From NCBI RefSeq assembly GCF_006345805.1, contig NC_043008.1:24056001-24120000 (forward strand): a stretch of DNA of 64,000 nt. The letters are read 5' to 3'. The notes beneath the pieces are model-generated. The model was not told the DNA's origin and searched no databases. It worked only from the letters and a program-made list of their open reading frames with translations. A program made the position numbers and the translations under genes. The stretch is from Octopus sinensis (lineage: Eukaryota). Each line of letters starts with the position of its first letter. Position 1 is the first letter of the stretch. Of the stretch, positions 42,492-42,688 are shown piece after piece.

Positions 42492-42523
42492 ATACCGGAG
42501 TAAACATGAATGTGAAACAAAAA

Positions 42524-42561
42524 CTGTCTGATGAACGGCAACGAGAAACTCAGAGTAACAG
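42524..42561 (+). ncRNA. Minimal type I hammerhead ribozyme, intact core
   Basis: CTGT-CTGATGA-A-CG[GCAA]CG-A-GAAA-CTC[A]GAG-TA-ACAG; GUA site; stem I extendable (CAAAAACTGT/ACAGATTTTG). Confidence 0.8.
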
Positions 42562-42593
42562 ATTTTGTTGAATTTTCTGCTGCTTAAAATAAA

Positions 42594-42688
<95 letters not shown>

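What the first reader, a model, noticed from the sequence alone, without database searches (positions are those of the whole stretch)
42494..42594. 38-nt minimal hammerhead with intact core in a ~100-bp island between (TA)n tracts
Seen: CTGT CTGATGA A CG-GCAA-CG A GAAA CTC-A-GAG TA ACAG. It has a 2-bp stem II capped by a GNRA loop, an A-A apposition at 10.1/11.1 and a one-base stem III loop that cannot close intramolecularly. Inference: an obligate dimer, and the island is almost nothing but ribozyme, either an extreme 5' truncation or a very small mobile unit.
Basis: partly seen in the sequence, partly recalled or inferred. Interest (0 to 1): 0.75.

Follow-up and report, generated by a model that had tools for sequence, protein, structure and literature searches.

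The report
Stub of a Penelope-like jumping gene
The 100-base island is the clipped end of a Penelope-like jumping gene whose small self-cutting RNA motif occurs in thousands of copies in this genome; the motif is predicted to fold into its active shape only as a pair, a design already described, so this lone copy is likely an inactive leftover.

Summary
The 38-nt type I hammerhead is present as described (42524-42561, predicted cut after A42557). It is not a stand-alone unit. The exact 38-mer occurs 2,397 times in the genome, in the pseudo-LTR of a ~3.4-kb Penelope-like element (PLE) whose ORF has the Hydra-clade motifs. The island is a two-armed stub in (TA)n: an inverted 26-nt piece of the element's 3' tail joined at a 5-nt microhomology to the last 79 nt of the pseudo-LTR. 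Twenty-one such stubs were found, 81-115 bp long, with 17 different junctions, so they form a truncation series. Folding supports dimer-only activity but predicts very weak pairing in trans. The one-base stem III centre is common in this clade. Only A.A at 10.1/11.1 is unusual (0 of 53 relatives). Not found in the papers searched: every opposite-strand arm pair is one short end plus one tailed end (34 of 34), and arm 5' ends pile up just upstream of the ribozyme, not at its cut site. Cleavage is untested. The scan noted minimal PLE hammerheads before in other genomes.

The parts
42365..42494 (.). (TA)n tract, left flank; likely target of the insertion
   Evidence: all 21 island-type insertions have TA-type repeats on both sides
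42495..42520 (-). Inverted arm: last ~28 nt of the element's 3' tail (tailed end), with one 2-nt deletion and one substitution
42516..42520 (.). 5-nt microhomology shared by the two arms (the junction)
   Evidence: sequence; overlap of the two blast segments
42516..42594 (+). Sense arm: last 79 nt of the pseudo-LTR, ending at the short end; 100% identical to many other copies
42516..42569 (+). Extended hammerhead: 7-bp outer stem I (42516-22 with 42563-69), A.A mismatch, then the 38-mer
42524..42561 (+). Type I minimal hammerhead; inner stem I 42524-27 with 42558-61
42528..42534 (+). Core CUGAUGA (C3-A9); predicted to be tied up by pairing 42527-31 with 42550-54 in the monomer
   Evidence: pair probabilities 0.94-0.98 for four of five pairs in the 54-mer
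42535..42544 (+). Stem II domain: A.A at 10.1/11.1, two C-G/G-C pairs, GCAA loop
   Evidence: stem II pair probability about 0.8; A.A in 0 of 53 relatives
42545..42548 (+). Core GAAA (G12-A15.1)
42548..42556 (+). 9-nt near-palindrome: stem III, predicted to form only between two copies (4+4 bp around an A.A)
42557..42557 (+). Predicted cleavage nucleotide A17 (GUA triplet); not tested
   Evidence: sequence; hammerhead numbering from established knowledge
42595..42685 (.). (TA)n/(TG)n tract, right flank

Best explanation
The island is a two-armed, extremely truncated insertion of a Hydra-type Penelope-like element into a (TA)n tract, and its hammerhead is the element's pseudo-LTR ribozyme, which is predicted to fold actively only as a dimer and is likely idle at this site. 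Shown: parent element, position of the motif 175 nt upstream of the ORF's ATG in tandem copies, two fixed 3' ends about 72 nt apart, back-to-back arms, copy numbers. Inferred mechanism: the element's RT-endonuclease nicks both strands of (TA)n and primes two cDNAs on uncleaved element RNA, one at the short end and one at the tailed end. Both stop early, and they are joined at a few shared bases. Here the tailed cDNA stopped after about 28 nt and the short one after 79 nt, just past stem I, which is the family's preferred stopping zone. In direct tandem copies two ribozymes 3.4 kb apart in one transcript would be able to form the double hammerhead, perhaps with protein help, and cut the precursor. 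A lone stub has no partner in cis.
For: Parent: 723-aa ORF beside the motif; model pLDDT 93.3, top Foldseek hit telomerase RT, E 2.8e-9, RT-class folds by VIA-align, best Z 14.4; Hydra motifs RWK, DKT, CxCx5C, CxxC, CxH present and near-invariant in 118 aligned proteins. Motif under structural selection across the clade: sense-strand hammerhead in 56 of 78 related loci, antisense 0, shuffles 0 in 20 rounds; in a stem-blind test of 48 motifs stem I is 97% paired against 49% with shuffled partners and stem III 98% against 65%. Two ends: 1,200 short and 1,130 tailed; 34 of 34 opposite-strand pairs among 115 arms are short + tailed. Uncleaved template: 104 of 115 arms run past the cut site and only 5 end within 3 nt of it. 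Two internal RT start sites, cleavage and extension of both strands, AT-rich targets and use of uncleaved RNA were shown in vitro for a Poseidon PLE (PMC11167929). Inverted truncated copies, tails and (TA)n targets are described in PMC8557442.
Against: No cleavage assay and no RNA ends. The two-cDNA scheme is taken from a different PLE clade. The dimer is only marginally favoured (-22.6 against -20.4 kcal/mol; in the dimer ensemble the inactive intermolecular pairing, about 0.45, exceeds active stem III, about 0.3), and ViennaRNA does not model the catalytic core. The GIY-YIG assignment rests on motifs and weak Pfam scores (2 of 40 relatives, below cut-off; P0001 itself 0 hits). A sister subfamily shares a U4-to-C core change (4 of 8 arms with a non-A 11.1 among the loci held), so an intact core may not be needed for copying.
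Confidence: 0.85

Rival explanations
1. The island is a tiny non-autonomous mobile unit (SINE-, MITE- or retrozyme-like) that is copied as such by the PLE machinery.
For: Some junctions recur: one 81-bp form 3 times and one 109-bp form 3 times; palindromic two-armed minis with the same junction are frequent. One locus (L318) holds three head-to-tail ~155-nt hammerhead + tail units with shared private changes.
Against: The window's own junction occurs once among 21 island-type insertions with 17 different 5' parts. Recurrent junctions sit at microhomologies, and one occurs in both the TAA and TAG sequence subfamilies, which points to repeated formation. Lengths are continuous with kilobase copies.
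Confidence: 0.07
2. The ribozyme of this young subfamily has lost activity (A.A at 10.1/11.1, only two stem II pairs, core tied up in an alternative helix) and is carried along as a passenger or as a structural signal.
For: A.A in 0 of 53 relatives, where T.T (24) and G-C (18) dominate. Sister copies have T, G or C at 11.1 and some share U4C. No pile-up of ends at the cut site. Catalytic mutants did not affect insertion in vitro in PMC11167929.
Against: All core letters, stem I and the palindrome are intact in 2,397 copies. An unpaired 10.1/11.1 position is the commonest state in the clade, and a 10-nt stem II domain occurs in 6 of 53 relatives. This rival concerns catalysis only and is compatible with the origin given in the best explanation.
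Confidence: 0.3
3. The island is a host-adopted ribozyme that cuts a host transcript at this site, pairing in trans with other copies.
For: Thousands of identical potential partners exist.
Against: 100% identity to the young family means a recent insertion, not conservation. Predicted trans Kd is about 29 mM, and two whole islands pair through their CCGG ends, not as a double hammerhead. The ORFs I examined in the window look like mobile-element relics; I did not search for host exons.
Confidence: 0.03

Closest known systems
Hydra-clade PLEs and their hammerheads (Craig et al. 2021, PMC8557442; File S2 rows such as Hydra-2_aMil, Penelope-3_HM, Hydra-1_oBim)
   Same: ORF motifs RWK, DKT, CxCx5C, CxxC/CxH; (TA)n targets; sense hammerhead near the 3' end; 4-bp palindromic stem III with a one-base centre. 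Hydra-2_aMil has the same stem I, stem III arms and A17. Several rows have an unpaired T.T at 10.1/11.1.
   Different: Unit is 3.4 kb (3,383 and 3,425 bp), against generally under 3 kb. Stem II is 2 bp with A.A. The Hydra-1_oBim hammerhead differs. An 18-nt piece of this motif and an 11-residue piece of this ORF were not found in that paper's supplement text (long runs in it are cut in display).
Minimal hammerheads (min-HHR) of metazoan PLE pseudo-LTRs (Cervera and de la Pena 2014, PMC4209133; Lunse et al., PMC5785218, seen only as a citation)
   Same: Type I topology, palindromic mini stem III, dimer dependence, mostly solo truncated copies, pairs on opposite strands 100-700 bp apart.
   Different: That paper's consensus has a long stem II (7-8 bp in Schistosoma) and a conserved G10.1-C11.1 pair; this motif has neither.
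Poseidon element PAc of Anolis (Frangieh et al. 2024, PMC11167929)
   Same: Two fixed 3' ends that define a tail; AT-rich targets; copies made from uncleaved RNA.
   Different: Different clade. There the tail is 30-40 nt (as quoted for Penelope) and the start sites lie inside the ORF; here the tail is about 72 nt and ends 66 nt before the ATG.
Non-LTR retrozymes (PMC7229834, search listing only; bioRxiv 10.64898/2026.07.22.740005, part 1 of 5)
   Same: Small, non-coding, type I hammerhead, derived from PLE pseudo-LTRs.
   Different: Retrozymes are tandem arrays of at least two units; the island is a single copy with an inverted partner arm.

Membership tests
Type I hammerhead ribozyme | Core C3-U4-G5-A6-N7-G8-A9, G12-A13-A14, A15.1-U16.1, H17 | tested here: met
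   all letters present
Type I hammerhead ribozyme | Stems I and III supported by compensatory change | tested here: met
   across 48 motifs of related elements; no covariation within the young family itself
Type I hammerhead ribozyme | Stem II closed by a 10.1-11.1 pair (canonically G-C) | tested here: not met
   A.A here; unpaired T.T in 24 of 53 relatives, so not required in this clade
Type I hammerhead ribozyme | Site-specific self-cleavage | not testable with these tools
   needs an in vitro assay
PLE minimal (dimer-type) hammerhead | Lies in the pseudo-LTR on the ORF's sense strand | tested here: met
PLE minimal (dimer-type) hammerhead | Palindromic stem III that is unstable in the monomer and forms in a dimer | tested here: met
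   computed only; margin small
Penelope-like element (EN+) | Single ORF with telomerase-related RT | tested here: met
   RT fold clear, telomerase top in Foldseek and among the top rows in VIA-align; no tree built
Penelope-like element (EN+) | C-terminal GIY-YIG endonuclease | tested here: inconclusive
   Y595, Y610, G612 invariant in 118 sequences; Pfam below cut-off in 2 of 40 relatives; single-sequence domain model unusable, pLDDT 34.6
Penelope-like element (EN+) | Pseudo-LTRs, partial tandems, inverted truncated copies, optional tail | tested here: met
Hydra clade | RWK, DKT, CxCx5C linker, CxxC and CxH motifs | tested here: met
   definition; motifs
Hydra clade | Insertion into (TA)n | tested here: met
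Hydra clade | Absence of the CCHH motif; grouping with Hydra references in a tree | not tested
   reference proteins were seen in the supplement but not used in any tool
Non-LTR retrozyme | Tandem array of two or more units with complete hammerheads | tested here: not met
   single copy in the window; one other locus of the family, L318, does meet it

The most novel reading that the evidence does not exclude
The thousands of young copies record how this element inserts: every event primes two cDNAs, one at each of two fixed RNA sites, on opposite target strands and on uncleaved RNA, and the hammerhead region acts as a boundary (a short RNA that begins about 13 nt before the 38-mer, or an RT stop just past stem I) that sets the size of the stubs. 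The ribozyme would then work during transposition as a structural landmark, with cleavage playing no part, and a 2-bp stem II with an A.A closing position would be among the leanest natural hammerheads if it cleaves at all.
Probability: 0.3. Interest if true: 0.55.

Novelty: new member of a known kind. Interest (0 to 1): 0.25.

Why it matters
As a single locus it matters little: it is one dead stub among thousands, and dimer-type hammerheads in Penelope-like elements are published. The family is more useful than the locus. It is young and abundant, so its insertion ends give a genome-scale check on the unresolved PLE mechanism: strict pairing of a short with a tailed end, copying through an uncut ribozyme, and a roughly tenfold excess of stops just upstream of the ribozyme. 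It also offers a very lean natural hammerhead for testing how little stem II is enough.

Tried and rejected
Rfam: no hammerhead model hit. Pfam and PDB sequence searches with the parent ORF: nothing; the single-sequence fold of its C-terminal domain was unusable and was not searched. RNA evidence: no RNA holder listed; four runs laid as contigs show no ends, strand or level, so there is no evidence either way on expression or cleavage. Cleavage-site run-off as the source of short copies: not supported, 5 of 115 arms end within 3 nt of the site, most at microhomologies. A transcription start at position -155 of the full-length RNA as the cause of the pile-up: an initiator-like CCATTCT sits there (consensus recalled), and 224 of 1,542 exact matches that reach -155 have a non-template base before it, but 0 of 30 examined ORF-continuing copies (of 91) end at -141 to -155 and 15 of 30 extend beyond -300, so a simple start-site model fails. 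A cap-derived extra G at that edge: 80 of 224 have G, but in nearly all of the 30 inspected the G can come from the partner arm; not shown. A splice acceptor at the same place: no shared upstream exon among arms ending there. Lunse et al. (PMC5785218) could not be read. Repbase and Dfam cannot be searched here, so the family may already be catalogued.

Full report
Observation. The loose core pattern is weak evidence (9 matches in the window, 3.55 expected). My descriptor with stems gave 3 window hits (42528, 46414, and 59632 with only 3 bp of stem I) and none with stem I of 4 bp or more in 50 mononucleotide shuffles. Rfam misses the motif. Stem I extends by 7 pairs beyond an A.A mismatch, so the folded unit is about 54 nt.

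Copy number and parent. The window lies in a 2.7-Gb genome, G000; no call identified the host. The exact 38-mer occurs 2,397 times, a lower bound because a sister subfamily differs. Longer copies carry an ORF: L033 gives 723 residues stop to stop. It has 2,093 relatives among 7,999 scored candidates, the best 120 at 43-58% identity. A model built on 118 sequences has pLDDT 93.3; Foldseek ranks telomerase RT first (E 2.8e-9, TM about 0.4) and VIA-align returns RT-class folds over residues 20-490 (best Z 14.4, DRT2 RT; telomerases up to 13.0). The motifs that Craig et al. give for the Hydra clade (RWK, DKT, CxCx5C, CxxC, CxH) are present and near-invariant. The endonuclease assignment is weaker: conserved tyrosines and glycine, Pfam GIY-YIG below cut-off in 2 of 40 relatives. 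In tandem copies the hammerheads are about 3.4 kb apart and the predicted cut lies 175 nt upstream of the ATG, on the sense strand.

The motif is selected as a structure. In 78 metagenome loci that encode relatives (the best 80 of 481 confirmed), 56 have a sense-strand hammerhead, none an antisense one, and none appeared in 20 rounds of shuffles. With only core letters and spacing demanded, 48 motifs show stem I 97% paired (shuffled partners mean 49%, maximum 60% in 1,000) and stem III 98% (mean 65%, maximum 75%); related sequences inflate such controls somewhat. Of 53 distinct motifs, 24 have the same 7 nt between A15.1 and U16.1, 6 have a 10-nt stem II domain, and position 10.1/11.1 is T.T in 24, G-C in 18 and A.A in none. 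File S2 of Craig et al. lists Hydra hammerheads with one-base stem III centres, one with the same stem I, stem III arms and A17. So only the A.A with two pairs is unusual.

What the island is. Copies end at one of two fixed places: a short end (equal to 42594) or a tailed end about 72 nt further on; 1,200 and 1,130 exact matches; 91 copies run on from the tail into the ORF. I took 115 of the 116 listed ends on contig C1 up to 150.7 Mb (one lay outside the fetched DNA), in 79 loci. All 34 opposite-strand pairs are one short plus one tailed arm, pointing outward; 44 loci had a single listed arm and 3 pairs were same-strand tailed arms. The island is such a pair: 42495-42520 is the inverted tail tip, 42516-42594 the short arm, overlapping by 5 nt. 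Two pattern searches found 21 island-type insertions at 20 places, 81-115 bp long with 17 different 5' parts; the window's junction occurs once. This is a truncation series, not a fixed small element.

Why the island is almost only ribozyme. With the last tail base as 0, the 38-mer spans about -142 to -105 and the cut falls near -108. Of 115 arms, 37 end at -141 to -155 (2.9% per nt among 86 at risk), 12 at -130 to -140, 5 at -105 to -111 (0.7% per nt), and 10 at -156 to -249 (0.2% per nt). Arms of one insertion are not independent, part of the peak at -152 sits on a CTAG palindrome, and lengths above about 600 nt are unreliable because the alignment stops at subfamily indels. Genome-wide, 224 of 1,542 exact matches that reach -155 have a non-template base before it. 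The window's short arm ends at -150. The cause is open: ORF-continuing copies do not stop there (0 of 30 examined), which counts against a start site of the full-length RNA; a separate short RNA or an RT stop just past stem I remain. In any case the templates were uncleaved.

Dimer. In the monomer the core pairs with the stem III palindrome (probabilities 0.94-0.98 for four pairs) and the active fold has probability about 7e-5. For two 54-mers the minimum-energy fold is the double hammerhead, -22.6 against -20.4 kcal/mol for two monomers. The ensemble is less favourable: binding -2.2 kcal/mol, Kd about 29 mM, active stem III about 0.3, inactive intermolecular pairing about 0.45; two whole islands pair through their CCGG ends instead. 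Dimer dependence is therefore plausible, but a lone stub is unlikely to cleave. These are nearest-neighbour predictions without tertiary contacts or protein.

Against function. A sister subfamily has T, G or C at 11.1, and 4 of 8 such arms among the loci held share U4C (the loci were picked mostly by the exact motif, so this is a biased sample). No RNA evidence was obtainable (see Tried and rejected).

What I read. PMC4209133: parts 1-2 of 4 (abstract, results, discussion). PMC11167929: parts 1-2 of 4 (main text). PMC8557442: passages, section 11, supplement part 2 of 59 and two term searches. bioRxiv 10.64898/2026.07.22.740005: part 1 of 5. PMC6765202 and PMC6155905: passages. Lunse et al.: citation only. 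Six paper searches listed nothing on this family or on the pile-up of ends, but the library lacks most subscription papers and repeat databases, and the supplements of PMC4209133 and PMC11167929, which I did not open, may hold similar motifs or end maps. Earlier notes of this scan report the same kind of motif in four other genomes and nothing for this sequence or genome; they agree but were not used as evidence.

Verdict. Real hammerhead motif, known kind, new family member. The locus is an ordinary dead stub; the family's end statistics are a modest lead on PLE mechanism. Interest 0.25.

Noticed in passing
window 45851-46625: A second two-armed inverted insertion (94-95% complementary arms) of another repeat family, with a hammerhead-like motif in each arm (core at 46414 on +, 46062 on -; long stem II, palindromic stem III). 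50 matches listed, 1,756 candidates, best copies 93-96% identical. Parent ORF not sought.
   Followed up: partly
L318 (G000:C5:83780565-83781323): Three head-to-tail ~155-nt hammerhead + tail units separated by short (TA)n, sharing private changes, and a fourth copy 392 bp away. It fits the definition of a retrozyme-like array and could form a double hammerhead in cis; local DNA duplication or an assembly artefact is not excluded. L206 shows a similar duplicated stub.
   Followed up: partly
sister subfamily in G000 (markers at window-equivalent 42562 and 42586): Copies with T, G or C at 11.1, several sharing a U4-to-C core change (4 of 8 such arms among 229 held; also seen in laid contigs). 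My exact patterns under-count this subfamily, so total copy number is above 2,397.
   Followed up: partly
window 9496-10464 (+): ORF relic similar to the C-terminal part of the parent protein (E 5e-17; weak GIY-YIG hit), interrupted by an (AAT)n tract: a likely older PLE of the same type.
   Followed up: partly
window 37283-38927 (+): Two overlapping ORFs with an RVT_1 hit (E 3.3e-10) and a C-terminal cysteine cluster; likely another PLE-type relic (motifs recalled, not tested).
   Followed up: partly
window 42990-45573: Large inverted repeat, arms about 96% complementary in three segments.
   Followed up: no
window 42177-42285 and 46691-46799: 109-nt inverted repeat pair, 95% complementary, the left copy just upstream of the island's left (TA)n tract.
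   Followed up: no
window 59632-59663 (+): Hammerhead-like core with a 3-bp stem I and short palindrome; weak, may be chance or a relic.
   Followed up: no
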